Positions 29,212 to 40,422 are shown, numbered from the stretch's first letter. The stretch is DNA of 64,000 nt from an uncultured Gemmatimonadota bacterium (GCA_947085385.1 CAMTWA010000020.1:29853-93852), one strand, 5' to 3'. Program-made: numbers and translations. Notes: generated by a model from the sequence alone, not told the origin.

Positions 29212-30735
29212 CTACCGCGGCTCCCATCGAATCGAGAACGTCATGACACTCCGCTTGCCTGTCGGCAACAGCGGCAGCGTCGCGTTCCTCGGCGACGTGA
29301 CCGTGCCGTCCACGACCAGGTGGATGAAGTCGCCGTTGCCAAGCTTCCACCCGGCGTCCACCGCTCCGCGGGTCGTCGAGGAGGGCGTGCCTTCCATCGC
29401 GAACGCGTCATAAAGCCAACGCCGAAAGACGGGGCCGAGCGTGCTGGGGGCAGGAAGCACTGACGTGGGCGTCAGCATGCCGAACGCGCCGAGCACGGCG
29501 AGCGAATGGCCAGCGCGTGACTGCCAGTCGGCGCGGGCGCTGCCCAGCCAGCCATTGGCCTTTCGCGACCAGTGCGTACGCCTCAGGTAATCGTCGTGCG
29601 TGGCGTTTTCCATTCGGGTGTCGAGGCCGAACGTCCATCGCGTGCCCGCGATCCACGGCACCGGCGTCTCGGCGCGCAAGCCGAACGTCGCTTCGCTGCG
29701 TGTTGCGCGATGCACGACTGCCGACAGATCGTGACGGCGTGTTTCATCGTCAACACTCTTCGCCGAGAGGCGCGCCGACACGCGACGCATCGTGTCGCGC
29801 AGGGCGAGATGCGCGGTGACGGTGCCGCCCCATCCGGTTGACGACCACCGGTCGAGCGGTGCGTTGGCCAGGCGCTGCGTGTGCTGGTTGTCGTGCTGTT
29901 GCAGTTGCTGCACCACGAGTCCGGCGCCGCGTCGCACGCTTCCTGTGGTGGCAATGAGCGACGCGTTCAACGCGCCATTGGCCGAGCGGCGATAGATGAT
30001 GTTCTGGTCGTACGAAAGGGGGAGCGGATCCTCGAATCCCACGAAGTAGTACGCGATGCCGCCAAAGGGATTGGGCCTCAGGCGCACGGTCTCGTTGGCA
30101 TCGCGCCAGCGCGCCGACGCGGCCACGCGACTGCTGCCGCCGACCTGGCGGCCGGCGCCCGCCACGAACTCCAGCGCCGACGCCTGCTCCGTCCGCATGC
30201 GCGAGCTGTGCTCCGAAACCGCCTCCACGCCCGCATACCGCGCGGTGAGTCCGGCGTCCCACCGGCCGACGGTCCGCGCCATCGTCCCTTCGAGGCGCAG
30301 CGCCGTGCCGGTGAGCTGCGGCGCAAAGGTATCGAGCACGGCGAATGGCGCGGTGGTAAACGAGTTCAGCAGGGCGCCGGTGGACGGCGCGTTCGTGGTG
30401 CGCTCGAGTTCCACGCCACCCAGGAGCGCCGCACGCGTGCCGAGCTTCAGTCCGCCAAATGCACCGGCTCCCTGCATGCTACCCTGTGCCACATCCACCT
30501 TGCGACGCCATGTGCCGCTTTCGGTGCGTGACCAGACGCCGTATCGCAGCGGAGGGAGCAGCTCGAGCCGTGCGAGCGCGGCGGGGTCAACACCGGTCGC
30601 GCTCGGCGCGAGTTCCACGGTCGCGAGCGGCGGCGCCGTCCGAAACCCGGACGTCTGTGGAAGCTGGGCCTGCACGCCGAACGCGATGGCGATGCATGCC
30701 GTCGCACCGATGATTGTGCACGCGGTGTGCCTCAT
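29212..30735 (-). CDS. Putative outer-membrane beta-barrel protein, partner of the upstream TonB-dependent receptor
   Basis: ATGA overlap with the receptor gene. Signal peptide MRHTACTIIGATACIAIAFGVQAQ. Alternating-hydrophobicity sequence ending FSIRWEPR. No family recognised. Confidence 0.55.
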   Translation of the reverse strand: MRHTACTIIGATACIAIAFGVQAQLPQTSGFRTAPPLATVELAPSATGVDPAALARLELLPPLRYGVWSRTESGTWRRKVDVAQGSMQGAGAFGGLKLGTRAALLGGVELERTTNAPSTGALLNSFTTAPFAVLDTFAPQLTGTALRLEGTMARTVGRWDAGLTARYAGVEAVSEHSSRMRTEQASALEFVAGAGRQVGGSSRVAASARWRDANETVRLRPNPFGGIAYYFVGFEDPLPLSYDQNIIYRRSANGALNASLIATTGSVRRGAGLVVQQLQQHDNQHTQRLANAPLDRWSSTGWGGTVTAHLALRDTMRRVSARLSAKSVDDETRRHDLSAVVHRATRSEATFGLRAETPVPWIAGTRWTFGLDTRMENATHDDYLRRTHWSRKANGWLGSARADWQSRAGHSLAVLGAFGMLTPTSVLPAPSTLGPVFRRWLYDAFAMEGTPSSTTRGAVDAGWKLGNGDFIHLVVDGTVTSPRNATLPLLPTGKRSVMTFSIRWEPR

Positions 30736-33506
30736 CGGATGCCCCCGCGCCAGCCGACCGGCAGCACCAGCTCCGCGCCAAACTGCACCGTCGGGAACAG
30801 GCGTGACGCTCGCGTAGCGGTGGCGAACTTCCCTTCGCGGTTGAACGCGTTGAAGGCATACACCGTCAGGCGGCCGTTCGTGGCGATGGTCTTTGCCAAT
30901 TGCAGAGAGGCGATCCAGTCGTTGGCCCGGGTATCCGAGACCGTCGAGACGCCGCGCCGCGGCTGGCGCAGGTCGGCGTACGCGGGGTCGGTGCGACTGG
31001 CGGCAGGGACGGCCGTGTACTGACCGGTGCGCGTGAGGTAGCCGCTCCACGACAATGTGTCGGTGCGCGCCACGTCCTGGGTGCGCTCGCCGACATACCA
31101 TTGAATGACGGCCGACACGAGCAACCCGGCCGCCGGCTGATGATGCGCCAGGCGCGCGCCGAGGATGCCGCGTCGCGCGTCGCGCGCGTAGCCGTCCCAC
31201 ACCGGAATGCGCCGCAGCCGCGCGTCGGTCTGGAACTGGTTGAACGACGAGCGTCCCACGCCGAACTCGAGCCCGCGCTGGCTGAAGCGCGTGTGCGTCC
31301 ATGCCCCCTGCAACTGCACGTCGAGCCGCAAGGCGTCAATGCGCCGCAGGCTCACCGTCGCTTCCACACCGCTGGACTTGGCGTCGAGCACGTGTCCGGG
31401 ACGGTCAATCGTGATGGGCACCGTGTCGATGGCGTACGGCGGTTCAATGAGCACCGGCGGCGAGCCGCTGCCGGGAATCGTGTTGCTCAGTGTGTACCGG
31501 TTGACGAACACGGCATCCGTGTAGCGGTCCTGTCCAACGCCCCCGTGCGTGCGCTCGTCGAACACCACGATCTCCACGGAGCCAATACGCCCCGCTGTCA
31601 GCTCCACACCGGCCTCGCGCTTCTGCATGGTGGTGAAACCAAGGCGGAGATTCGTGGGATCGCGCGTCTCCGTGGTCAGCACGGCGAGGCGCTCCGAAGG
31701 GGTGTTGGCGTACCAATTGACGTTGACGAGGTCGAACCACTGCGTGGCGGGCCAGAGCGATCCCATGGTCGGGGCCTTGGCGGTGCGCCCGGCGGCCGCA
31801 CGCAGGCGGATCCAGCCGGCAGGCACGAGCTGGGCGTTGACGCGTGGCGACAGTAGCCACTGCCGCACGGCCGTCGGCGAGTGCGCATCCGGCACCAGCG
31901 CGTCAGCGCGAGCGCCGAACTCGAATTCACCCTGGCCAAGCGCGCCGAGTTGACGTTGCAGCGACTGCTCGGCGTACAGCGCCGCAATCACCAGCGGTGG
32001 CACGCTGTCGAAGCGCCGCGGCCGGTCGAAGCCGCGAATGCCGTTGAACAGCACCTGCGGCGGGCGGTCCATCGCAAACGTATACCCTGCGCCTCCGTTG
32101 TACTCGGCGCGCAACTCGGCGCCGACGCGGCGGCGGGCCGACGGTTGCAGCCACTCGAGGCGGCCGTAGCCGAGCACGGGTGCGCCTTCGAGAGAGACTT
32201 CGGCCAGATAGGAGCCGCCGATGTAGCGACCCGTTGAACGCCCGGGAGTGAGCCGGTCGGTGAACGGCGTGGCGCCCGACGTCTTGAAGACGCTGGAGGA
32301 GGAGCGCTGGCGCTGCATCGTGGCGCTGTACGTCGCGTGCAGATGTGTCTGGTCGGCGGCGGCGGAGCGCCACCGGCCGAGCAGGCGCACGGTGAGGTTG
32401 CGTGACGACACGGCACGCCCCGGCAGCACGTCGGGCTGTTCGGGGGAGTCCTGCGTGACGAGCGCCGTCTGCAGGCGCAGGTCGCTGCTGCCGCCGCGGC
32501 GCGTGGTGCTGCGCATGGCGACGTCGAAGGCGACGCGTCGCGCCACATCGTCGTTAAGTCCTGGGGAAATGCGCGTGCTCGTGACATCGCCGAAGGCAGC
32601 GCCCACGCGATCGGGATTGAGCTGACGTCCGCCGCGCAGAGTGGCGGCCATCGAGCGCAAGTCGCCGCGGGCGAGCAGTTCGAGTGGCGACGGTGCGGTG
32701 CGCGTATCAACGATGACCGCGCCCTGGGTGAGGTCACCGTAGCGGGCCGGGGGGACGCCGCGAATGACTTCCACGCGTTCGAGCATCGATGCGGGGATGG
32801 CGCGCAGGTCCACGCCGGCGCCGGCATTGGTGGCCAATGACAGCTCACCGCGTCCGCCGAGGGACTGCAGGTTGGCATTGTTGGAGAGCGGTACGCCGTC
32901 GAGGATGATGGACGTGCCCAGCGCGGTGACGTCCTGCGCCCCGGGACCGCTGATGAAGTTGGCGGGTGCGGTGCGCAGGCTTACCTGTTGTGCGCCGGCG
33001 AGTCCCGGCGGCGCGATGGGCACGCCCGGCACGAGTTCGAGCACACCGGCGAGGCTGGCCGCCACCTGGTTCTCGATGGCGGCACGTCCGATGACGGTAG
33101 CGGAGGCGATGGTGCCGTCGGCGCGGGAGCGTGCGTCGGCGGTGACGCGCACGCGGTCGAGGCGCAGGGGGACGGTGGCGAGGGTGACGTCGACGCGCAG
33201 CGTGTCGTCGGCGCGGAGGTCGAGGTCGAGCCGTGCTTCGGCGAATCCGAAGCGGCGCACGCGAACGACGACCGGGCCGGCGGGCACGAGCGCGAGGCGC
33301 CAGACGCCGGTGGCGTCGGAGCGGGCGGTGAGGGGGGAGTTCTCGAGGAGAACGAGCGCGCCGTCGACGGGTCGCAGGTCGCCATGAGTGGTGACACGAC
33401 CGATTAGGGTGCCGGTGGCTTGGGCCTGTACCGCCGTGCTGGCGACGAACAGGCAAAGCGCGACGCCGGTTAGCAGATTGCGCGGGAGGTCTTCTGTCCC
33501 TCTCAT
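30732..33506 (-). CDS. TonB-dependent receptor with N-terminal carboxypeptidase-regulatory-like domain
   Basis: Signal peptide, CarboxypepD_reg-like TGTLIGRVT...GVWRLALVPAGPVVVRVRRFGF, plug motifs (IERVEVIRGVPPARYGDLTQGAVIV) and a long beta-barrel ending in an aromatic-rich tail. Confidence 0.85.
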   Translation of the reverse strand: MRGTEDLPRNLLTGVALCLFVASTAVQAQATGTLIGRVTTHGDLRPVDGALVLLENSPLTARSDATGVWRLALVPAGPVVVRVRRFGFAEARLDLDLRADDTLRVDVTLATVPLRLDRVRVTADARSRADGTIASATVIGRAAIENQVAASLAGVLELVPGVPIAPPGLAGAQQVSLRTAPANFISGPGAQDVTALGTSIILDGVPLSNNANLQSLGGRGELSLATNAGAGVDLRAIPASMLERVEVIRGVPPARYGDLTQGAVIVDTRTAPSPLELLARGDLRSMAATLRGGRQLNPDRVGAAFGDVTSTRISPGLNDDVARRVAFDVAMRSTTRRGGSSDLRLQTALVTQDSPEQPDVLPGRAVSSRNLTVRLLGRWRSAAADQTHLHATYSATMQRQRSSSSVFKTSGATPFTDRLTPGRSTGRYIGGSYLAEVSLEGAPVLGYGRLEWLQPSARRRVGAELRAEYNGGAGYTFAMDRPPQVLFNGIRGFDRPRRFDSVPPLVIAALYAEQSLQRQLGALGQGEFEFGARADALVPDAHSPTAVRQWLLSPRVNAQLVPAGWIRLRAAAGRTAKAPTMGSLWPATQWFDLVNVNWYANTPSERLAVLTTETRDPTNLRLGFTTMQKREAGVELTAGRIGSVEIVVFDERTHGGVGQDRYTDAVFVNRYTLSNTIPGSGSPPVLIEPPYAIDTVPITIDRPGHVLDAKSSGVEATVSLRRIDALRLDVQLQGAWTHTRFSQRGLEFGVGRSSFNQFQTDARLRRIPVWDGYARDARRGILGARLAHHQPAAGLLVSAVIQWYVGERTQDVARTDTLSWSGYLTRTGQYTAVPAASRTDPAYADLRQPRRGVSTVSDTRANDWIASLQLAKTIATNGRLTVYAFNAFNREGKFATATRASRLFPTVQFGAELVLPVGWRGGIR

Positions 33507-33577
33507 CCGAAGCCTCGAATGGAACAAGAACCATTGAATAACGCGCCCGTGAAGGCCGCATCGATTCGTCGCGTTCT

Positions 33578-33609
33578 CTATTGACACTCCGGCCCTGGGA
33601 AGTCAATAG
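33578..33609. promoter_or_regulatory. Palindromic divergent control element CTATTGAC-N16-GTCAATAG
   Basis: Perfect 8-bp arms. Each arm contains TTGAC(A/T), a -35-like hexamer for the gene on its own strand, with the other arm 17 nt downstream. Confidence 0.5.
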
Positions 33610-34268
33610 TGCAGCGCCCCTCGCAGCCTTCCCGACACCGATGGCCTTCCATGTCGTGGCGCTCAATATGGGTGGAGCGGATTCTGCTTGTCGGCCTGGC
33701 GGTACTCGCCTTCGTGCTCACACAGAATGTGCGTGCTGGACGCGCGCGCGAGCTGACGCTCAATCGCAAGCTGCGCGAGCCGTGGCAGGGGAATGCCATT
33801 GCCACCTTCAGCACCCGTTCCGTACAAGGCGATACAGTCACCGTCGCCCAGACGCCAGTAGGGATGAAGCAACTCGTGTACGTTTTCACCACCCGCTGTG
33901 CGTTCTGCCGGCGATCAAACTCGCACGTAGTCGCGCTGCAACAATCGCTCGACAGCGCGGCCGCTGCCGGAGAGGTGCGAGTGCAGATGGTTGGCGTCTC
34001 ACTCGATTCCCTTGCCGAGACCGAGCGCTACGTCAAGGAGCAGGCACTGACGTTTCCGGTTGTTCGGTTCCCGGAGCGCAAGCTGCAGCTGATCTACAAG
34101 ACCCAGGTGGTACCGTCGCTGATGCTGCTGACGGACGAAGGGCGCGTGATCCTAGCGCGGATTGGAGTATTTGAAACCGCGGCCGCTTACGACTCGATGC
34201 TGCGGGCGGCGCTCATTCCGCCGCCGAAGAGGGACTCATTGCCTTCTGCGTTATCAACAAGACCATAG
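33609..34268 (+). CDS. Membrane-anchored thioredoxin-fold thiol:disulfide oxidoreductase (TlpA/ResA-like), copy 1
   Basis: N-terminal TM (ILLVGLAVLAFVL). LVYVFTTRCAFCRRS gives a CxxC after a beta-strand. cis-Pro loop VVPSLMLL. An alternative start at the conserved Met 33651 is plausible if the upstream promoter-like element is real. Confidence 0.75.
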   Translation: MQRPSQPSRHRWPSMSWRSIWVERILLVGLAVLAFVLTQNVRAGRARELTLNRKLREPWQGNAIATFSTRSVQGDTVTVAQTPVGMKQLVYVFTTRCAFCRRSNSHVVALQQSLDSAAAAGEVRVQMVGVSLDSLAETERYVKEQALTFPVVRFPERKLQLIYKTQVVPSLMLLTDEGRVILARIGVFETAAAYDSMLRAALIPPPKRDSLPSALSTRP

Positions 34269-34315
34269 GTCAGCGTCAGTAGGGCGTTGTCATCCTGTAT
34301 ACTGGGAGGTGCCGG

Positions 34316-34561
34316 ATGAGCAGGAAACTCGCAGGGACTGTGCGACTGGCGATTCTCGCGCTGGCTGGCGTCGCTTTGGCGGCTGGTGCGGTTGAGGCGC
34401 GCACAGCGAGTCGGCTGGATGCTTGCTACTATTACCCTCCGTTCTATCTGGGGGCGTGCGCAAACACTCCGCAATGCAAAGACATGTGCTCGGCGTACTG
34501 GCCACCTAATCCGGACATCGGCGAGTGTTTGAATGAGCCGCTGTGCTGCGTTTGCGAATAG
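34316..34561 (+). CDS. Secreted 8-cysteine peptide precursor, defensin-like (CS-alpha-beta / gamma-core signature), copy 1
   Basis: GGGAGG lies 6 nt upstream of the ATG. Sec-type leader MSRKLAGTVRLAILALAGVALAAGAVEA. Core is C-x10-C-x5-C-x3-C-x12-C-x5-CC-x-C. All Cys are conserved in the paralogue at 37585. Confidence 0.7.
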   Translation: MSRKLAGTVRLAILALAGVALAAGAVEARTASRLDACYYYPPFYLGACANTPQCKDMCSAYWPPNPDIGECLNEPLCCVCE

Positions 34562-34562
34562 C

Positions 34563-34603
34563 CGTATTTGAGAACGACCTCAAGACCCATCGCTCGAAAT
34601 ACG
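34563..34603. terminator. Weak hairpin between convergent peptide and lipoprotein genes
   Basis: cgtatttgag ... ctcgaaatacg (7+3 bp with a bulge and a large loop). Confidence 0.25.
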
Positions 34604-34617
34604 CCCGGCACGCTTCG

Positions 34618-35889
34618 CTACGGAGTCACAAACGGCGAGGCCGGCAGGAGCTGAAAGTCACGCGCGCTCGATCGGCTTCGTCTGAGCCAGCTGGTGCTCG
34701 GCTGGCGTGTCCGCTGGAATGATTTGCCGGGGAACGTCCAGGCATTGAGCACGAGCGGAGTCGCATCGATGTTCCCGCCGACAGCAGGTGCGCAGAGCGG
34801 CGGGAACCGCGGGTCGGCCACGTCCCACGAAAACACGTCCAGCAGCGTGGCGCGCGGCAAGAAGATGCGATCGACTCCGTCGGCGGCATTCGGCTTGCGC
34901 CGCGCGGTGGCGACGTCCTGTGCCATCGCCACCACAAACGCGTTTTCTAAGGCCAGCCATTCGGGGCCGTGAGTGTTATACGAACCATACTTCAGTCTCG
35001 TGCCGACCGGGATCAAGTTCGGCACGGAAGGGTTGTCAACGTCACCGGGGCCGATGTACGTCTCAAAGTCCGCATTTCTCAGGTCGAACATGTCGTGCAC
35101 GCCAAATGGCCGGTGATCGATCGCATCGGTGGCCACCACGACCATTTCACCAGGCCTCAGGCGCTTGCCGAGTGGAGGGAACTGGTAGATGATGTCCGCC
35201 CAGACCCCTGTCGAGTCGTCATAGAGCTCGCGAGTAATGGTGCACCTTGTGCCTCCATAGTCTCTAGACGGACCCGTCGTACTCGCGATCAGCATACCGT
35301 CCAACGTGATCGTTGTGTCGCTGTTATTGTACAGTTCGACGTACCCGCCGGCGTTGTATTTCGTCCCGTTTGGCTGGAACGTGACGAAACCACCGTCGAG
35401 CAGTTCTGCAATGACGAGCGATCCACGGCGCACAACGCCCGCACTGAGATCGATCGCGAGCGTGCCGCCCGCGCTGCCCACCAAGAGGCCGCGGGCACCG
35501 CCCCACGCTGAAAAGTCCCGGTCGTCCGCCGTGAGCCTCGCCAGATCCGCAGGCGCGAATGCGCGCGTGACCGTCAGTTGGTAGTTTCCTTCCAACAGGT
35601 CATTGAACGTCGCCACGCCCGTGGCATTCGTGAGCACGCTGATCTCTGTGCCGCCCTCCCGACGCAGCACAACCGTCGCCCCGGGAATCACGTCGGGCCA
35701 GCCGAGCGTTCGAGCGAGCAACAGGTCGGGACTCTCGGGCCGCACAGTCACGCTGAGCGTGGTGCGCAGCACACCACTGCTTGGCGGCGAGGTCGTCCCC
35801 GGGTTCTCAGGAGCGCTCACTCTTGACTCGCCGCCGCCACAAGCGGCGAGCAGTACGCATAGCACCAGTGACCGGCAAGAGGGCGTCAT
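34618..35889 (-). CDS. Lipoprotein with carboxypeptidase-regulatory-like and lamin-tail-domain (LTD)-like regions, paralogue 1
   Basis: Lipobox LLAAC. ATVVLRREGGTEISVLTNATGVATFNDLLEGNYQLTV (CarboxypepD_reg-like). SLVIAELLDG...GGYVELYNNSDTTITLDG (LTD-like). 423 aa after trimming to MTPSCRSL. Confidence 0.7.
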   Translation of the reverse strand: MTPSCRSLVLCVLLAACGGGESRVSAPENPGTTSPPSSGVLRTTLSVTVRPESPDLLLARTLGWPDVIPGATVVLRREGGTEISVLTNATGVATFNDLLEGNYQLTVTRAFAPADLARLTADDRDFSAWGGARGLLVGSAGGTLAIDLSAGVVRRGSLVIAELLDGGFVTFQPNGTKYNAGGYVELYNNSDTTITLDGMLIASTTGPSRDYGGTRCTITRELYDDSTGVWADIIYQFPPLGKRLRPGEMVVVATDAIDHRPFGVHDMFDLRNADFETYIGPGDVDNPSVPNLIPVGTRLKYGSYNTHGPEWLALENAFVVAMAQDVATARRKPNAADGVDRIFLPRATLLDVFSWDVADPRFPPLCAPAVGGNIDATPLVLNAWTFPGKSFQRTRQPSTSWLRRSRSSARDFQLLPASPFVTP

Positions 35890-36032
35890 GACGGAGCGAA
35901 ATGAGGTCAGGCTGGCCGGAGCGTAGCGCCGACACGAACTGCTGTCACCTATGCAATTACCCGCGAGGAAAGTCAAGGGAGAGAGCGAGACGCTACGACA
36001 CCTGCTCAAACGGCACGTTCATCACCGGATAT

Positions 36033-36737
36033 TCACGCCATCCTTAGGTAGTCGAAATGCCACCACTCCGTGGGATTGACGGCGAATCCCTCCGTCTCCA
36101 TCACCAGCCGGAGCAAATCGCGCCTACCGCGCTCGTCGGCGGTACCGCCAGCGTAGTCGGGATACGCACGGTCGGTAAACTCGTCATACCCGCTCGGCAT
36201 GCGTGCGACGCGTCCGGTCGCGCGGTCGTACAGCGTCAGGTCCACGGCCGCGCCGCGATTGTGCCGCGAGCCCGTCGCAGGGTTGGCCACGAAGGTCCGC
36301 TGTGAGTCAGGCGTCGCCTCCCAGAACATCCACGTCACGTGCCACGGGCGGTACGCGTCATGGATCAGCAATCCGTAGCCGTCCCGCTCGAGCGCTTGAT
36401 GGGCGCGCACCAGCGCCTCGGCGGCCGGGCGCTGCAGGAACGCACGCACATGGGAGTACATGGCCGCCCCCATGGAGTTGTTTGTGGAGGCGTAGCGAAC
36501 GTCGAGCCGGATGGATGGGTCGAGTGCCACGAGTTCAACCAGACGCGCTGCACGCGTTCCTGCGAGCCCAGCGGACGGCGTCAGCGCCAACGCCTTGGCG
36601 CGCAACACCTCGACCGGACGGCGAGGGGGAATGCGAAAGGTCGCATGGACGGAGGTGTCCGTCTGCGCGCCGAGAGGAAGCACGGCGAAGACGGCGAGCA
36701 GAGCGAGGCGTGTGCAGTTCATGGAGAAGAGTCGCAT
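36033..36737 (-). CDS. D-alanyl-D-alanine dipeptidase (VanX/DdpX, peptidase M15D) with signal peptide
   Basis: DVRYASTNN, SRHNRGAAVD (SxHxxGxAxD) and PTEWWHFDY motifs. N-terminus MRLFSMNCTRLALLAVFAVLPLGAQ looks like a Sec signal. Confidence 0.8.
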   Translation of the reverse strand: MRLFSMNCTRLALLAVFAVLPLGAQTDTSVHATFRIPPRRPVEVLRAKALALTPSAGLAGTRAARLVELVALDPSIRLDVRYASTNNSMGAAMYSHVRAFLQRPAAEALVRAHQALERDGYGLLIHDAYRPWHVTWMFWEATPDSQRTFVANPATGSRHNRGAAVDLTLYDRATGRVARMPSGYDEFTDRAYPDYAGGTADERGRRDLLRLVMETEGFAVNPTEWWHFDYLRMA

Positions 36738-36842
36738 GACGCCGCAATAAGAGGCCGAGCGTCCAATGCATTCACGACTCCGAAGCGCACTCAAGAGCAT
36801 GCGCACTGTGCGGGATGGACGAACGACTGAACGGCGGCTCTT

Positions 36843-36874
36843 CTATTGACAGTCCGCCCCGGGAGGATTATGTC
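36843..36874 (+). promoter_or_regulatory. Promoter-like element CTATTGACA-N17-TATGTC upstream of TlpA-like copy 2
   Basis: TTGACA at 36846-36851, 17-nt spacer, TATGTC at 36869-36874. Homologous to the element at 33578. Confidence 0.45.
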
Positions 36875-36877
36875 GTG

Positions 36878-37537
36878 ATGCAACGCTCCGCGCGGCTTTC
36901 CCGATACCGGGGGTCGTCTATGTGGTGGCGCTCGATTTGGCTGGAACGCGCGTTACTTGGTGCCCTGACGATCCTGGCGTTCGTGCTCATTCGAGACGTA
37001 CGCGAGAGCCGCGTTCGCGAATTGCAGCTCAATCGGAGGCTGCGCGAGCCATGGCGGGGGAACGCCATGGCCACCTTCAGCGCGCGCTCAATCCAAGGCG
37101 ACACGGTCACGGTTGCGCGGGTGCCGGTGGGGTCGAATCAGCTGGTGTACGTCTTCTCAACCCGTTGCGCATTCTGTCGGCGATCGAATCCCCACATCAT
37201 CGCCCTGCAGCGAGCGCTCGACAGCGCGGCGATGACCGGCGGGGTACGCGTGCAGGTGGTCGGCATCTCGCTCGACTCGCTGCCCGAGAGCGAACAGTAT
37301 GTCGAGGAACAGGGGCTGACCTTTCCGGTCGTGCGGTTTCCGGAGCGCAAGCTGCGGCTGATCTACAAGACGCTGGTGGTGCCCTCGTTGATGCTCCTGA
37401 CAGACGAAGGACGCGTGATCTTGGCCCGGCTTGGGGTGTTCGAGACCAAGGCGGCCTTCGACTCGCTACTGAAGGCGGCGTTGACGCCGCCACCCAACAT
37501 GAAATCGCTCGCCGTCAGCGGCCCAACCGAGCCGTAG
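36878..37537 (+). CDS. Membrane-anchored thioredoxin-fold thiol:disulfide oxidoreductase (TlpA/ResA-like), copy 2
   Basis: Same length as copy 1 (219 codons) and roughly 70 percent identical by hand alignment. Same CAFC motif. Alternative start at Met 36920. Confidence 0.75.
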   Translation: MQRSARLSRYRGSSMWWRSIWLERALLGALTILAFVLIRDVRESRVRELQLNRRLREPWRGNAMATFSARSIQGDTVTVARVPVGSNQLVYVFSTRCAFCRRSNPHIIALQRALDSAAMTGGVRVQVVGISLDSLPESEQYVEEQGLTFPVVRFPERKLRLIYKTLVVPSLMLLTDEGRVILARLGVFETKAAFDSLLKAALTPPPNMKSLAVSGPTEP

Positions 37538-37584
37538 CGCCCGGCGGCGGGCGGACGGTTTTCACTCAACGCGGGAGGTTCCTG

Positions 37585-37830
37585 ATGAAGGAACGAGCTA
37601 CTGCAATAGCACGAATGGCGATACTGGCGCTGGCCGTCGGCGCACTCGTGACCGGGGCTGCCGAAGCGCGGTCGGCCCGGAAGGCGGACGAGTGCCTCTA
37701 TCTGCCGCCGTTCTACCTTGGCGCGTGCACCAGCGACGAGGCCTGCCGGGCCATGTGCGCGCCCTATTATCCCGAGAATCCCGACGTCGGTGCATGTTTG
37801 CCAGCCTGGATCTGCTGCATCTGCGAATAG
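37585..37830 (+). CDS. Secreted 8-cysteine peptide precursor, defensin-like, copy 2
   Basis: GGGAGG lies 6 nt upstream of the ATG. Leader MKERATAIARMAILALAVGALVTGAAEA. Cysteine spacing identical to copy 1. The ORF track shows it only inside a longer out-of-context ORF (36922..37830). Confidence 0.7.
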   Translation: MKERATAIARMAILALAVGALVTGAAEARSARKADECLYLPPFYLGACTSDEACRAMCAPYYPENPDVGACLPAWICCICE

Positions 37831-37857
37831 GACTCCGGATTTCGATCACCGCCCCTG

Positions 37858-39129
37858 ATGCGCCACATAGCCCCGTCCCTCTCCCTCTGTTTGCTGCTGG
37901 CCGCCTGCGGGGGCGGTGAGTCGCGCGTCAGCGGTCCCGCCGCGCCGGGGCCGACCACGCCGTCTCCGGGCGGTGAGATCCTTCGCACCACGCTCGTGGT
38001 GACCGTGCGCCCCGAGGCCCCAGACCTGCTGCTCGTGCGCACGCTGGGCTGGCCCGACGCGATTCCCGGCGCCACGGTGGTGTTGCGTCGGGAGGGGGGC
38101 GCGGAGGTGACGGCGCCGAGTAACGCGCAGGGCGTCGCCACCTTTGCCGATCTGGTGGAGGGGAGCTACCAGCTCACGGTGTCGCGCCCCTTCACGCCGA
38201 CGGAGTTGAGTACGCTCTCGCCGGCCGACCGCGACCAGTCGGCGTGGGGGGGCGCGGGGAGCGTGCGCCTCGGCAACGCCGGCGGCGTCTTGCCCGTGGA
38301 AGTGATGGTCGCGGCAGTCCGGCGTGGCTCCCTCGTCTTCTCCGAGATACTGGGCGGGTTCATCACGTTTCAGCCCGATGGCTCGATGTACGACTACAGT
38401 AGTTACCTGGAACTCTTCAACAACAGCGATACCACGATCACGCTCGATGGCCTCCTCTTGGCCTCTACGTTTGGCGCACGCGACAACTATGGTCCGGAGT
38501 ACTGCGCGATCAATCGGGCCTTGTACGCCGATACCGCGGGCGTTTGGGCCGACATCATCTACCAACTACCGGCCCTCGGACGCCGGCTCAAGCCGGGCGA
38601 GATCGTGGTGGTCGCCACCGACGGGATCGACCATCGCCCCTTCGGCACGCGCGATGTCTATGATCTGCGAGGCGCCGACTATGAGGTCTACCTGGGGCCG
38701 GGTGATGTGGACAATCCTGCCGTCCCCAATCTGATCTCCGTGGGCACGACGCAACAGCATTCCGTACACAGCACGCATGGCACTAACTGGGTTGGACTAC
38801 ACAGCGCCATCGTGATTGCTGCGCCGCAGAATGTAGCGGCGCTAGCGCGACGACCGCTGACGACCCAGGTGCGCGACTACTTGTTGCTCCCCCGGGCGAC
38901 GCTGCTCGATGTCTTCACCCACTTTCGAGACGACCCGCGCTTTCCCCCGCTCTGCGCCCCGACCGTCGGCGCGAACCTCGATGCGAGTCCGCTCATCGTG
39001 CCGCCAGGACCGCTGATCGGCACATCGTTTCAGCGGTCGCGTCACCCGGGTACGTCGTATCTAAAGCGCAGCCGCTCGAGTGCGCGCGATTTCTCCATCC
39101 TCAGTGCGACGCCATTTTCCATTCCGTAG
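37858..39129 (+). CDS. LTD-like lipoprotein, paralogue 2
   Basis: Lipobox LLLAAC, 423 aa, same architecture as 34618..35889. Starts 27 nt after the peptide gene. Confidence 0.75.
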   Translation: MRHIAPSLSLCLLLAACGGGESRVSGPAAPGPTTPSPGGEILRTTLVVTVRPEAPDLLLVRTLGWPDAIPGATVVLRREGGAEVTAPSNAQGVATFADLVEGSYQLTVSRPFTPTELSTLSPADRDQSAWGGAGSVRLGNAGGVLPVEVMVAAVRRGSLVFSEILGGFITFQPDGSMYDYSSYLELFNNSDTTITLDGLLLASTFGARDNYGPEYCAINRALYADTAGVWADIIYQLPALGRRLKPGEIVVVATDGIDHRPFGTRDVYDLRGADYEVYLGPGDVDNPAVPNLISVGTTQQHSVHSTHGTNWVGLHSAIVIAAPQNVAALARRPLTTQVRDYLLLPRATLLDVFTHFRDDPRFPPLCAPTVGANLDASPLIVPPGPLIGTSFQRSRHPGTSYLKRSRSSARDFSILSATPFSIP

Positions 39130-39147
39130 CAAGGAGTGCCTCACGGC

Positions 39148-40422
39148 ATGCGCCATATTGTCCCGGGCCTCGCCCTCTGTTTCCTGCTGGCCGCCTGCGG
39201 GAGCGGTGAGTCGCGCGTCAGCGGCCCGGCCGCGCCGGGGCCGACCACGCCGTCTCCGGGCGGTGAGATCCTTCGCACCACGCTCGTCGTGACCGTGCGC
39301 CCCGAGGCCCCAGACCTGCTGCTCGTGCGCACGCTGGGCTGGCCCGACGCGATTCCCGGCGCCACCGTGGTGCTGCGCCGCGAGGGGGGCGCGGAAACGA
39401 CTGCGCAGAGTAACGCGCAGGGCGTTGCGGCCTTCGCCGATCTGATTGAGGGGAGTTACCAGCTTACGGTCGCGCGCGCCTTCACGACCACGGAACTGGG
39501 TACGCTGGATGTTGCAGACCGCGACCTCTCCGCTTGGGGCGGCATACGCAGCGCGAACATAAGCAACGCCGGCGGCGTCTTGCCCGTGGACGTGACAGTC
39601 ACGGCAGCCCGGCGCGGTTCGATGGTCTTCTCCGAGATCCTGAGCGGTGGCTTCATCACGTTCCAGCCAGATGGCACGATGTACAACTACAGCAGCTACC
39701 TGGAGCTGTTCAACAATAGCGATACCACGATCACACTCGACGGCATGCTGCTGGCAGTCACATACGGCGCAACGCGCAACTATGGTCCGGAGTACTGCGC
39801 GATCAATCGGGCCTTGTACGCCGACACCGCGGGAGTGTGGGCCGGCATCATCTACCAGATACCGGCCCTCGGCCGCCGGCTGAAACCTGGCGAGTTCGCC
39901 GTGGTCGCCACGGACGCCATCGACCATCAGCCCTTCGGCACGCGCGACGTCTATGATCTGCGGGGCGCCGACTACGAGGTCTACCTCGGGCCTGGCGATG
40001 TGGACAACCCTTCCGTGCCCAATCTGATCTCCGTGGGTACGACTCAACAGCATTCGGCGTACTCCACGCATGGCACGTACTGGCTTGAAGGGAACGGCGC
40101 CGTGGTGATTGCCATGCCGCAGAATGTGGCGGCGTTGGCACGACGAGCGCTTACGACGCAGGTTCGCGACTACGTGCTGCTCCCTCGGGAGACGCTACTC
40201 GATGTCATTACCGTCTTTGTAGACGACCCGCGCTTTCCCCCGTTCTGCGCCCCGACGGTCGGCGCGAATATAGACGCCGCCCCGTTTGTCATGAACTCCT
40301 TTGTAATGACCAATTCGTCGTTTCAGAGGCAGCGTCACCCGGGCACTTCGTACTTGAAGCGAAGCCGCTCGAGTGCGCGCGATTTCTCCATCCTTCGCGC
40401 TACACCATTCTCCATCCCGTAG
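39148..40422 (+). CDS. LTD-like lipoprotein, paralogue 3
   Basis: Lipobox FLLAAC. Very similar to paralogue 2, in tandem 18 nt downstream. Confidence 0.75.
   Translation: MRHIVPGLALCFLLAACGSGESRVSGPAAPGPTTPSPGGEILRTTLVVTVRPEAPDLLLVRTLGWPDAIPGATVVLRREGGAETTAQSNAQGVAAFADLIEGSYQLTVARAFTTTELGTLDVADRDLSAWGGIRSANISNAGGVLPVDVTVTAARRGSMVFSEILSGGFITFQPDGTMYNYSSYLELFNNSDTTITLDGMLLAVTYGATRNYGPEYCAINRALYADTAGVWAGIIYQIPALGRRLKPGEFAVVATDAIDHQPFGTRDVYDLRGADYEVYLGPGDVDNPSVPNLISVGTTQQHSAYSTHGTYWLEGNGAVVIAMPQNVAALARRALTTQVRDYVLLPRETLLDVITVFVDDPRFPPFCAPTVGANIDAAPFVMNSFVMTNSSFQRQRHPGTSYLKRSRSSARDFSILRATPFSIP

What the first reader, a model, noticed from the sequence alone, without database searches (positions are those of the whole stretch)
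33609..34268. Peptide-dedicated, membrane-anchored TlpA/ResA-like oxidoreductases with an unusual CAFC site
Both copies (33609-34268 and 36878-37537) have one N-terminal TM helix, the thioredoxin beta-strand plus active site LVYVF(T/S)TRCAFCRRS, and a cis-Pro loop VVPSLMLL. They lack the WC(G/P)PC context of housekeeping thioredoxins. They are not next to cytochrome c maturation or Sco genes, the usual TlpA clients. Instead each directly precedes an 8-Cys peptide gene at an identical 47-nt distance. That suggests a client-specific disulfide oxidase or isomerase. The start codon is ambiguous. The promoter-like element ends only a few nt before the first in-frame start, so the conserved Met at 33651 / 36920 (MSWRSIW / MWWRSIW) may be the real start.
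Basis: partly seen in the sequence, partly recalled or inferred. Interest (0 to 1): 0.6.

Follow-up and report, generated by a model that had tools for sequence, protein, structure and literature searches.

The report
Peptide-linked membrane thioredoxin-like enzymes
Two real genes in a Gemmatimonadaceae genome encode membrane-anchored thioredoxin-like enzymes of an unnamed family that almost always sits beside a small exported cysteine-rich, defensin-like peptide gene, so each most likely folds its neighbouring peptide.

Summary
Two paralogous genes (73% identical, dN/dS 0.17) encode 205-aa proteins with one N-terminal membrane helix, a helical stalk and a TlpA/ResA-like thioredoxin domain (CAFC, Val-cisPro). 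Each is followed after exactly 47 nt by an 81-codon gene for a signal-peptide, 8-Cys peptide. The true start is the downstream ATG (33651 / 36920).

The proteins belong to a distinct, unnamed clade of about 480 clusters at 50% identity. Its signature is F-x-F-T-T-T-C-x-[Y/F]-C. CAFC is a rare variant; the conserved feature is the aromatic second residue (136 of 140 representatives). The clade reaches no curated cut-off for ResA, StoA, MauD, DsbE or TlpA.

Under one automatic criterion, 36 of 43 family loci from several phyla have an adjacent exported peptide with at least 6 Cys. None of 11 ordinary TlpA-like genes of the same phylum do (p = 3e-7). No cytochrome or copper maturation genes are linked. 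In Bacteroidota and Ignavibacteriales-type members a MauE gene (a DsbB substitute) directly precedes the enzyme. This genome has no MauE but has DsbA-VKOR and DsbA-DsbB pairs, two CcdA and no DsbC.

Best reading: a peptide-dedicated oxidative-folding catalyst. Whether it oxidises or isomerises is unresolved. It is a new variant of the MauD / bacteriocin-oxidoreductase theme.

The parts
33578..33610 (+). Promoter-like site TTGACA-18 nt-AATAGT inside an inverted repeat CTATTGAC...GTCAATAG. It lies in the spacer shared with the divergent TonB-dependent receptor gene.
   Evidence: 10 of 12 consensus matches; 0.3 expected by chance. The element TATTGACA-N15-16-GTCAATA is conserved upstream of every close orthologue. 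Function is not shown.
33651..34268 (+). Thioredoxin-like oxidoreductase, copy 1 (205 aa). TM helix about residues 6-24 (33666-33722), stalk helix to residue 42, TlpA-like Trx domain from about residue 47.
   Evidence: The annotated GTG at 33609 is probably not the start.
33897..33908 (+). Active-site CAFC (Cys83-Ala-Phe-Cys86) of copy 1.
   Evidence: Read. Both Cys are invariant in A3. The family dipeptide is x-[Y/F].
34110..34115 (+). Val154-Pro155, the presumed cis-Pro loop of copy 1.
   Evidence: Pro is invariant in A3. It aligns with the GVPETF loop of PDB 3kcm.
34269..34315 (+). 47-nt spacer with the Shine-Dalgarno-like GGGAGG (34304-34309) of the peptide gene.
   Evidence: The spacer is 47-49 nt in nine close modules. 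No promoter-like site lies inside it, so co-transcription is inferred.
34316..34561 (+). Client candidate 1: an 81-aa precursor with a Sec-type leader ending AVEA and a 53-aa acidic core with 8 Cys (C..C..CxxxC..C..CCxC).
   Evidence: weak PF25052 hit, below cut-off; AF2 pLDDT 85.5, beta-alpha-beta-beta; the only Foldseek hit is plant defensin Rs-AFP1, not significant.
36843..36851 (+). CTATTGACA element upstream of copy 2. The second half-site is degenerate.
   Evidence: No full promoter match.
36920..37537 (+). Thioredoxin-like oxidoreductase, copy 2 (205 aa; CAFC at 37166-37177).
   Evidence: dN/dS 0.17 against copy 1.
37585..37830 (+). Client candidate 2: an 81-aa precursor, 52% identical to peptide 1, with all 8 Cys kept.
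29212..33506 (-). Context: a TonB-dependent receptor with an N-terminal CarboxypepD_reg domain (30732-33506) and a DUF6850 barrel-like partner (29212-30735). Both are divergent from copy 1.
   Evidence: This pair is conserved next to the module in Gemmatimonadales down to about 40% identity.
34618..35889 (-). Context: DUF4876/LTD lipoprotein paralogue 1, convergent with module 1.
37858..40422 (+). Context: DUF4876/LTD lipoprotein paralogues 2 and 3, directly downstream of module 2.
   Evidence: DUF4876 proteins are proposed lids of TonB-dependent transporters (bioRxiv 10.1101/2023.03.17.533168).

Best explanation
Each gene encodes an inner-membrane-anchored thiol-disulfide oxidoreductase of the TlpA/ResA/MauD structural class. 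I infer that it faces the periplasm and is dedicated to the co-transcribed neighbouring peptide.

Proposed mechanism:
1. The 81-aa precursor is exported by Sec and its leader is removed after AxA.
2. The tethered thioredoxin domain, held on a roughly 20-residue helical stalk above the membrane, meets the unfolded 8-Cys core as it emerges.
3. Through Cys83 of the C-x-[Y/F]-C site it donates and/or reshuffles disulfides until the four non-consecutive bonds of a cysteine-stabilised alpha-beta (defensin-like) fold are formed.
4. The enzyme is then recycled by a membrane redox partner. In Bacteroidota and Ignavibacteriales-type relatives this is the MauE encoded immediately upstream. In this genome, which has no MauE, it is presumably VKOR or DsbB if the enzyme is an oxidase, or CcdA if it is an isomerase.

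I favour oxidase/foldase over pure reductase.

Shown here: the genes, the fold class, the family signature, the gene linkage and the purifying selection.
Inferred: topology, co-transcription, the client relationship, the direction of electron flow and the recycling partner.
For: - Linkage: 36 of 43 family loci against 0 of 11 generic TlpA-like controls have an adjacent exported peptide gene with at least 6 Cys (p = 3e-7). Three more were found by motif search.
- The linkage persists where the rest of the neighbourhood changes. Neighbours are TBDR+DUF4876+DUF6850 in Gemmatimonadales, M16 peptidase in Longimicrobiaceae, and MauE+TBDR+DUF4249 in Bacteroidota and Ignavibacteriales-type loci.
- The Trx-to-peptide spacer is fixed at 47-49 nt.
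- Fold and relatives: AF2 pLDDT 86.4. Foldseek and HMM top hits are DsbE, ResA, StoA, 3kcm and SdbA.
- Active site: the family uses C-x-[Y/F]-C, with X2 aromatic in 136/140 and X1 Pro in 74/140. The generic paralogues of the phylum use W-C-x-[P/S]-C-R-E-E. CPYC and CPFC are the sites of the oxidases S. aureus DsbA (-132 mV) and DsbL (-95 mV), and of DsbG.
- MauE replaces DsbB in E. coli (bioRxiv 10.64898/2026.03.05.709764).
- Precedents: a thiol oxidoreductase and a 5-TM protein are needed for bacteroidetocin activity (PMC6671954). mauE/mauD lie next to precursors with at least 8 Cys in Streptomyces (PMC7794033).
- Client: the 6-Cys peptide variants lose Cys2 and Cys5 together, as expected for a disulfide pair.
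- Selection: dN/dS is 0.12-0.18.
Against: - Nothing biochemical is shown.
- The nearest solved and named relatives (ResA, StoA, CcmG/DsbE) are reductants fed by CcdA/DsbD (established knowledge). This genome has two CcdA genes and no DsbC-like isomerase.
- The genome already has two DsbA-VKOR/DsbB pairs that could oxidise any exported peptide, so an extra oxidase is not obviously needed.
- The charge bias around the membrane helix is neutral (net +2.2 on the N side against +2.1 on the C side). Topology therefore rests on homology and context only.
- Gemmatimonadota carriers mostly lack MauE. MauE presence does not complement VKOR absence.
- The defensin fold of the client has only weak support.
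- The loci counted are not phylogenetically independent.
Confidence: 0.6

Rival explanations
1. Dedicated reductase or thiol-keeper. The enzyme is kept reduced by CcdA, as TlpA, ResA and StoA are. It holds some or all of the peptide's cysteines in the thiol state, for example so that the peptide can bind a metal (compare TlpA acting on Sco/CoxB). Alternatively it only reduces wrong disulfides made by the housekeeping DsbA proteins.
For: - Closest sequence and structure matches are reductants: StoA, ResA and DsbE.
- The genome has two CcdA genes, one fused to a Trx domain, and no DsbC.
- Housekeeping oxidases are already present.
- The locus sits in a TonB-dependent uptake cluster whose Bacteroidetes counterparts are induced by iron starvation (PMC10434189).
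Against: - The family dipeptide x-[Y/F] is that of oxidases and isomerases, not the x-P of reductase-type TlpA-likes.
- Members from other phyla carry their own MauE, a DsbB substitute.
- The CxxxC/CxC framework, the paired loss of Cys2 and Cys5, and a confident compact model point to structural disulfides.
Confidence: 0.2
2. The enzyme serves the TonB-dependent receptor / lid lipoprotein system rather than the peptide. It might reduce or oxidise an imported substrate, or fold the receptor or lid. The peptide would then be a separate passenger of the locus.
For: - TBDR plus a lid-type lipoprotein (DUF4876 or DUF4249) is next to the module in Gemmatimonadales, Bacteroidota and Ignavibacteriales-type loci.
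- Thioredoxin-like proteins occur in other metal-uptake clusters, such as C. jejuni fetMP-fetABCDEF (title and abstract listed).
Against: - Longimicrobiaceae, L028 and L029 keep the Trx-peptide pairing without any TBDR or lid.
- The peptide is the only constant neighbour.
- Each DUF4876 paralogue has only two non-lipobox Cys (read).
Confidence: 0.08
3. Ordinary housekeeping TlpA-like protein or peroxiredoxin, as some annotations say. The adjacency to the peptide genes would be incidental.
For: - The best Pfam hit is AhpC-TSA.
- Sources name homologues 'peroxiredoxin family protein' or 'TlpA family protein disulfide reductase'.
Against: - The family is patchy: about 19 of 301 Gemmatimonadota genomes carry it, and both same-genus genomes lack it.
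- It is distinct from the generic TlpA-likes of the phylum (bimodal scores).
- It lacks the Pro of the peroxiredoxin PxxxTxxC motif and always has CXXC.
- The linkage statistic.
Confidence: 0.03

Closest known systems
MauD / MauE of methylamine-utilisation clusters. MauD is a TlpA-like thioredoxin-fold protein and MauE a membrane protein. Both are needed to mature the six-disulfide small subunit of methylamine dehydrogenase.
   Same: - N-terminally anchored redoxin-fold protein with CXXC, encoded next to a small, very disulfide-rich exported client.
- Distant members of this family (L025-L027) are preceded by a MauE gene with the CGC motif.
- The Longimicrobiaceae member L014 matches TIGR02661 MauD over nearly its full length at E = 9e-12.
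   Different: - The window proteins give no MauD hit at E<=0.01, and no member reaches the 188.6-bit cut-off.
- There is no MauE anywhere in this genome and no mau genes.
- The client is a 50-aa defensin-like peptide rather than an enzyme subunit.
- The module is embedded in a TonB-receptor locus.
Thiol oxidoreductase plus 5-TM protein of bacteroidetocin loci (Coyne et al. 2019, PMC6671954). Comparable peptide-dedicated oxidoreductases of Gram-positive bacteriocin loci are BdbA/BdbB for sublancin and BlpG (these two from my own knowledge).
   Same: A locus-encoded oxidoreductase beside a small Cys-containing secreted peptide. Deleting it attenuates peptide activity in Bacteroides.
   Different: - Those peptides have double-glycine leaders and ABC exporters, 2-4 Cys, and are bacteriocins.
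- Here the leader is Sec-type, there is no exporter gene, there are 8 Cys, and the core is acidic.
- Homology between the enzymes was not tested.
ResA, StoA, CcmG/DsbE and TlpA: membrane-anchored extracytoplasmic reductases of the TlpA-like family.
   Same: - Same fold and anchoring.
- Best PDB matches: TM-score normalised to the target of 0.78-0.84, E about 1e-10. HMM E = 5e-14 to 1e-9.
- Each of these enzymes is itself client-specific.
   Different: - 17-21% identity, and scores far below curated cut-offs (27.7 against 170 bits for ResA; 35 against 210 for StoA).
- No Trp before the CXXC, and x-[Y/F] instead of x-P.
- An extra stalk helix.
- No cytochrome c, Sco or sporulation context.
Candidate MauE/MauD-containing RiPP-like families predicted by decRiPPter in Streptomyces (Kloosterman et al. 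2020, PMC7794033).
   Same: mauE/mauD homologues lie next to a predicted precursor with at least 8 Cys, without other mau genes. The authors proposed that they modify the peptide.
   Different: Different phylum, MauE-dependent, no TonB-receptor context. Also uncharacterised experimentally.

Membership tests
Thioredoxin-fold, TlpA-like/Redoxin superfamily (Pfam AhpC-TSA PF00578, Redoxin PF08534, Thioredoxin_8 PF13905) | Thioredoxin fold with a CXXC at the N-terminus of helix 1 and a cis-Pro loop; a Pfam score above the gathering threshold | tested here: met
   PF00578 scores 32.5 and 35.1 bits (cut-off 26). PF13905 scores 29.2 (cut-off 27) for copy 1. AF2 model pLDDT 86.4 with Foldseek probability 1.00 to ResA, DsbE and StoA. 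Cys83, Cys86 and Pro155 are invariant.
ResA (NCBIfam NF002854) | Score of at least 170 bits; CEPC site; cytochrome c maturation context with CcdA/ResBC | tested here: not met
   27.7 and 25.7 bits. The site is CAFC. Neighbours are TBDR, DUF4876 and VanX-like genes.
StoA (NCBIfam NF041202) | Score of at least 210 bits; an endospore-former | tested here: not met
   35.4 and 30.8 bits. The organism is a Gemmatimonadaceae.
MauD (TIGR02661) | Score of at least 188.6 bits; adjacent mauE and methylamine dehydrogenase genes | tested here: not met
   No hit at E<=0.01 for the window proteins; the best family member scores 44.9 bits. No MauE in the genome.
CcmG/DsbE (TIGR00385) and TlpA (NF047696) | Score above cut-off (123 / 230 bits); ccm or Sco/cytochrome oxidase context | tested here: not met
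   No DsbE hit for the window proteins. TlpA scores 17.7 bits for copy 2. No such neighbours in any of about 40 loci.
DsbA family (PF01323 / PF13462) | Thioredoxin fold with an inserted helical domain; a match to the DSBA or Thioredoxin_4 profiles | tested here: not met
   Whole-genome searches with both profiles list other loci (C14, C2, C12, C17, C5) but not the two window genes on C20. The model has no helical insertion domain.
Peroxiredoxin (AhpC/BCP type) | Peroxidatic Cys in the PxxxTxxC motif with a conserved Arg; no CXXC required | tested here: not met
   The sequence is LVYVFTTRCAFC, with no Pro at position -7. CXXC is invariant. Only weak NCBIfam PrxQ/BCP hits, to distant members. 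Peroxidase activity itself is not testable here.
The unnamed clade itself ('TTTC-x-[YF]-C' membrane-anchored redoxins linked to Cys-rich peptides) | A full-length match including the TM helix and stalk; the F-x-F-[TN]-T-[TR]-C-x-[YF]-C motif; an adjacent exported Cys-rich peptide gene | tested here: met
   277 and 272 bits against the A3 profile, compared with 85 bits or less for generic TlpA-likes. Motif present. A peptide gene follows both copies.
Periplasmic (extracytoplasmic) orientation of the catalytic domain | N-in / C-out topology of the single membrane helix | tested here: inconclusive
   The charge balance of the flanks is neutral across 28 members. The orientation is inferred from homology and from the Sec-exported client. 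It needs PhoA/LacZ fusions.

The most novel reading that the evidence does not exclude
The enzyme-peptide pair is the ligand-making arm of a TonB-dependent uptake system. The dedicated oxidoreductase folds a gene-encoded, disulfide-knotted, acidic defensin-fold peptide. The peptide is released, captures a scarce nutrient (for example a metal), and is recognised by the DUF4876 (or DUF4249) lid and re-imported through the neighbouring receptor. It would act as a ribosomal 'peptide-ophore' whose activity depends on this enzyme.
Probability: 0.12. Interest if true: 0.85.

Novelty: new variant of a known kind. Interest (0 to 1): 0.45.

Why it matters
- It defines a sizeable, unnamed clade of membrane-anchored thioredoxin-fold enzymes (about 480 clusters at 50% identity). 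The clade has a clear sequence signature and a strong, testable genomic rule: it marks exported cysteine-rich mini-proteins, many with a defensin-like CxxxC/CxC framework.
- That gives a handle for finding unannotated bacterial disulfide-rich peptides. It also gives a candidate helper for producing them in heterologous hosts.
- The Gemmatimonadota members work without the MauE partner present in other phyla, so they are a natural test case for how such enzymes are recycled.
- The recurrent embedding in lid-plus-TonB-receptor loci of unknown substrate links oxidative peptide folding to outer-membrane uptake.

Tried and rejected
1. Complementarity test: if the enzyme is an oxidase, MauE-linked genomes might lack DsbB/VKOR. 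Not supported. DsbB is absent from all nine genomes tested, and VKOR is present in eight, including two of the three MauE-linked ones. Among 17 Gemmatimonadota carriers only two have a strong MauE, and it is unlinked. Inconclusive on direction.
2. Positive-inside rule for topology: neutral.
3. Foldseek of the peptide model: a single, non-significant hit to plant defensin Rs-AFP1 (E = 5). The defensin fold stays plausible but unproven.
4. Transcript evidence: only DNA metagenome runs hold the stretch, so no 5' end could be mapped.
5. Rfam scan of 33400-37950: nothing. Terminator scan: nothing.
6. NCBIfam: no curated family reached.
7. Peroxiredoxin reading: rejected on motif grounds.
8. CAFC as a special catalytic site: rejected. 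It is a rare variant of a variable first position.
9. Mirror-tree check of enzyme against peptide identities in nine close modules: only a modest correlation (r = 0.44). This is compatible with co-inheritance but is not evidence of co-evolution.

Full report
**1. Observation**

The two ORFs exist as described: 33609-34268 and 36878-37537, plus strand. Both match AhpC-TSA, Thioredoxin_8 and Redoxin in Pfam. Each carries LVYVF(T/S)TRCAFCRRS and VVPSLMLL.

Each stop codon is followed after exactly 47 nt by an 81-codon ORF (34316-34561; 37585-37830). These ORFs have a Sec-type leader and eight cysteines. Nine close modules from this and related metagenome-assembled genomes keep a spacer of 47-49 nt.

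The two enzyme copies are 73% identical. dN/dS is 0.17 with dS near 1, so the duplication is old and both copies are under purifying selection. The genome is a 2.84-Mb Gemmatimonadaceae-like assembly, 90% complete.

**2. Start codon**

The 205-aa homologues begin MSWRS, MVGRW or MLLRS; one NCBI gene call is 260 aa. In L011 and L012 an in-frame TGA lies two codons before the start.

A promoter-like site, TTGACA-18-AATAGT at 33581-33610, overlaps the GTG at 33609. It lies inside an inverted repeat, TATTGACA-N15-16-GTCAATA, which is conserved upstream of every close orthologue. ATG 33651 and ATG 36920 are therefore the likely starts. No RNA data exist to confirm this.

**3. What the protein is**

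An AF2 model built on a 28-sequence alignment (pLDDT 86.4) shows one long helix, residues 2-42. This comprises the membrane segment at about residues 6-24 plus a charged stalk. A thioredoxin domain follows.

Foldseek and profile searches of the PDB put the domain in the TlpA-like class. The hits are DsbE of C. tepidum, ResA, Geobacter 3kcm, StoA and SdbA, at 17-21% identity. No NCBIfam family cut-off is approached. ResA scores 27.7 against 170 bits and StoA 35.4 against 210. The window proteins give no MauD or DsbE hit.

- Family size: an exhaustive profile search of 1.84 billion representatives finds 480 clusters at E<=1e-30. All listed hits are 158-304 aa, most of them 180-240 aa and aligned over nearly the full length.
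- Family signature: F-x-F-[T/N]-T-[T/R]-C-x-[Y/F]-C.
- In 140 representatives the second dipeptide residue is aromatic in 136 (Y 81, F 49, H 5, W 1). The first is Pro in 74 and otherwise variable. CAFC occurs twice.
- The ordinary TlpA-like paralogues of the same phylum instead read N-V-W-A-T-W-C-x-[P/S]-C-R-E-E.

The real peculiarities are the loss of the Trp, the aromatic second residue and the stalk.

**4. Linkage to peptides**

I collected family loci in three ways:
- by exact-protein look-up;
- by a scan of GTDB species genomes;
- by a profile search of 301 Gemmatimonadota genomes.

In the 301-genome search the scores are bimodal. About 19 genomes hold true members (over 140 bits, full length). 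The rest hold only generic TlpA-likes. Both same-genus genomes lack the family, so it is accessory.

I then applied one automatic rule. It requires a Met-initiated ORF of 45-125 aa with K/R in the first 12 residues, a hydrophobic run of at least 11 residues in the first 40, at least 6 Cys after residue 25, and a position within 1.4 kb. By this rule 36 of 43 family loci have a candidate peptide, against 0 of 11 generic TlpA-like loci (Fisher p = 3e-7). Motif search adds three Longimicrobiaceae loci where classical 6-Cys C..CxxxC..GxC..CxC peptides lie upstream. The loci are related to one another, so the p-value overstates independence. They nevertheless span 20-85% identity and several phyla.

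The rest of the neighbourhood varies by lineage:

| Lineage | Other neighbours |
|---|---|
| Gemmatimonadales | DUF6850, TonB-dependent receptor and DUF4876 lipoproteins |
| Longimicrobiaceae | M16 peptidase |
| Bacteroidota, Ignavibacteriales and one mis-binned contig | MauE gene directly upstream, plus TonB-dependent receptor and DUF4249 |
| L028 | Neither |
| L029 | No TonB-dependent receptor or lid lipoprotein; a 1,313-aa CarboxypepD_reg-repeat protein lies upstream |

The peptide is the only constant partner. No cytochrome c, Sco or copper maturation genes were seen in any locus.

**5. The client**

The window peptides share an invariant framework, C-x11-C-x5-C-x3-C-x13-C-x5/6-CC-x-C, and have acidic cores. 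The hits to the plant AtDEF-like family are weak and below the cut-off.

The AF2 model (pLDDT 85.5) is beta-alpha-beta-beta. Its only Foldseek hit is plant defensin Rs-AFP1, and it is not significant.

In four 6-Cys relatives, Cys2 and Cys5 are lost together, as expected if they pair. Four non-consecutive disulfides in about 50 residues is the kind of substrate that needs catalysed shuffling. That last point is established knowledge of DsbC substrates, used here as inference.

**6. Direction of catalysis**

For an oxidase or foldase:
- CPYC and CPFC are the sites of S. aureus DsbA (-132 mV) and DsbL (-95 mV), and of DsbG. CGYC is the DsbC site (PMC8405906, PMC4460558).
- Members from other phyla carry their own MauE, which replaces DsbB in E. 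coli (bioRxiv 10.64898/2026.03.05.709764).
- A thiol oxidoreductase and a multi-TM protein are needed for bacteroidetocin activity (PMC6671954).

For a reductase or isomerase:
- The nearest characterised relatives are reductants.
- This genome has two CcdA genes, one of them fused to a Trx domain. It has no DsbC-like protein.
- It has two DsbA-VKOR/DsbB pairs that could already oxidise exported peptides.

The genome has no MauE. Most Gemmatimonadota carriers lack one or have it unlinked. MauE presence does not mirror VKOR or DsbB absence.

I therefore commit to a dedicated oxidative-folding catalyst, oxidase and/or isomerase, at 0.6. A thiol-keeping reductase stands at 0.2.

**7. Comparison and novelty**

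The idea of a client-dedicated extracytoplasmic oxidoreductase is known. Examples are MauD/MauE, the bacteroidetocin oxidoreductase, ResA and StoA. The decRiPPter study noted mauE/mauD next to precursors with at least 8 Cys (PMC7794033).

New here:
- the clade and its signature;
- its near-obligate pairing with defensin-like exported peptides;
- its MauE-independent form in Gemmatimonadota;
- its embedding in loci of lidded TonB-dependent receptors. DUF4876 is a proposed lid, and its Bacteroidetes clusters are strongly induced by iron starvation.

Earlier notes of this scan on the neighbouring peptide genes, and on MauE/thioredoxin/peptide modules elsewhere, agree with this picture. I treated them as leads only.

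**Verdict:** a real, ordinary-looking enzyme with a specific and interesting partnership. It is a new variant of a known kind, of moderate interest.

Noticed in passing
window 33578-33609; L005, L006, L007, L011, L012 upstream regions: The inverted repeat TATTGACA-N15-16-GTCAATA is conserved upstream of every close orthologue of the enzyme gene. Each half could be the -35 of one of two divergent, overlapping promoters, or the whole could be an operator for a dimeric regulator. The second half-site is degenerate upstream of copy 2 (36843-36880).
   Followed up: partly
window 33611-33650 and 36880-36919: The roughly 40-nt leader between the promoter-like site and the ATG is conserved among orthologues (core CTTCCCGAYACCGG), although it is probably untranslated. 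No Rfam match.
   Followed up: no
L006:7138-8255: An IS3-family transposase pair sits between the two enzyme-peptide-lipoprotein modules of a related contig. This hints at how the module was duplicated or moved.
   Followed up: no
L013, L014, L016, L019, L020 (Longimicrobiaceae): One or two tandem genes for classical 6-Cys CS-alpha-beta peptides (for example ...SCDTLCNRVCRAAGFIGGFCGDGVSCSCYL) lie upstream of the family enzyme. Where downstream sequence is held (L014 and L019), a roughly 1000-aa M16 (insulinase-type) peptidase follows. No TonB receptor is present.
   Followed up: partly
L025:5559-6809, L026:281-1599, L027:241-1510: In low-GC Bacteroidota and Ignavibacteriales-type contigs the order is MauE (CGC motif), family enzyme, then an 8-Cys peptide of unrelated sequence. 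A TonB-dependent receptor (L025, L027) and a DUF4249 lipoprotein (L025, L026) lie alongside; L026 is too short to show a receptor. L026 is filed under a Nitrososphaera MAG, which is probably a binning error.
   Followed up: partly
alignment A4 (L009, L017, L022, L023 peptides): The 6-Cys variants of the peptide lack exactly Cys2 and Cys5 of the 8-Cys framework. This is evidence from covariation that these two form a disulfide, as in plant defensins.
   Followed up: yes
own genome C5:26687-28006: A 440-aa ORF joins a CcdA/DsbD-type membrane domain to a thioredoxin-like domain. A second, stand-alone CcdA is at C11:41750-42385.
   Followed up: no
window 36033-36806 (-): A VanX-type D-Ala-D-Ala dipeptidase (Peptidase_M15, E = 2.5e-32) with a hydrophobic, signal-like N-terminus lies between the two modules.
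   Followed up: no
L018:1765-2701; L041, L043, L047: In L018 the enzyme frame runs on without a stop across the peptide gene, which is in another frame. Three other family genes show one internal stop codon, and L047's downstream peptide ORF looks frameshifted. These may be decay or assembly errors.
   Followed up: no
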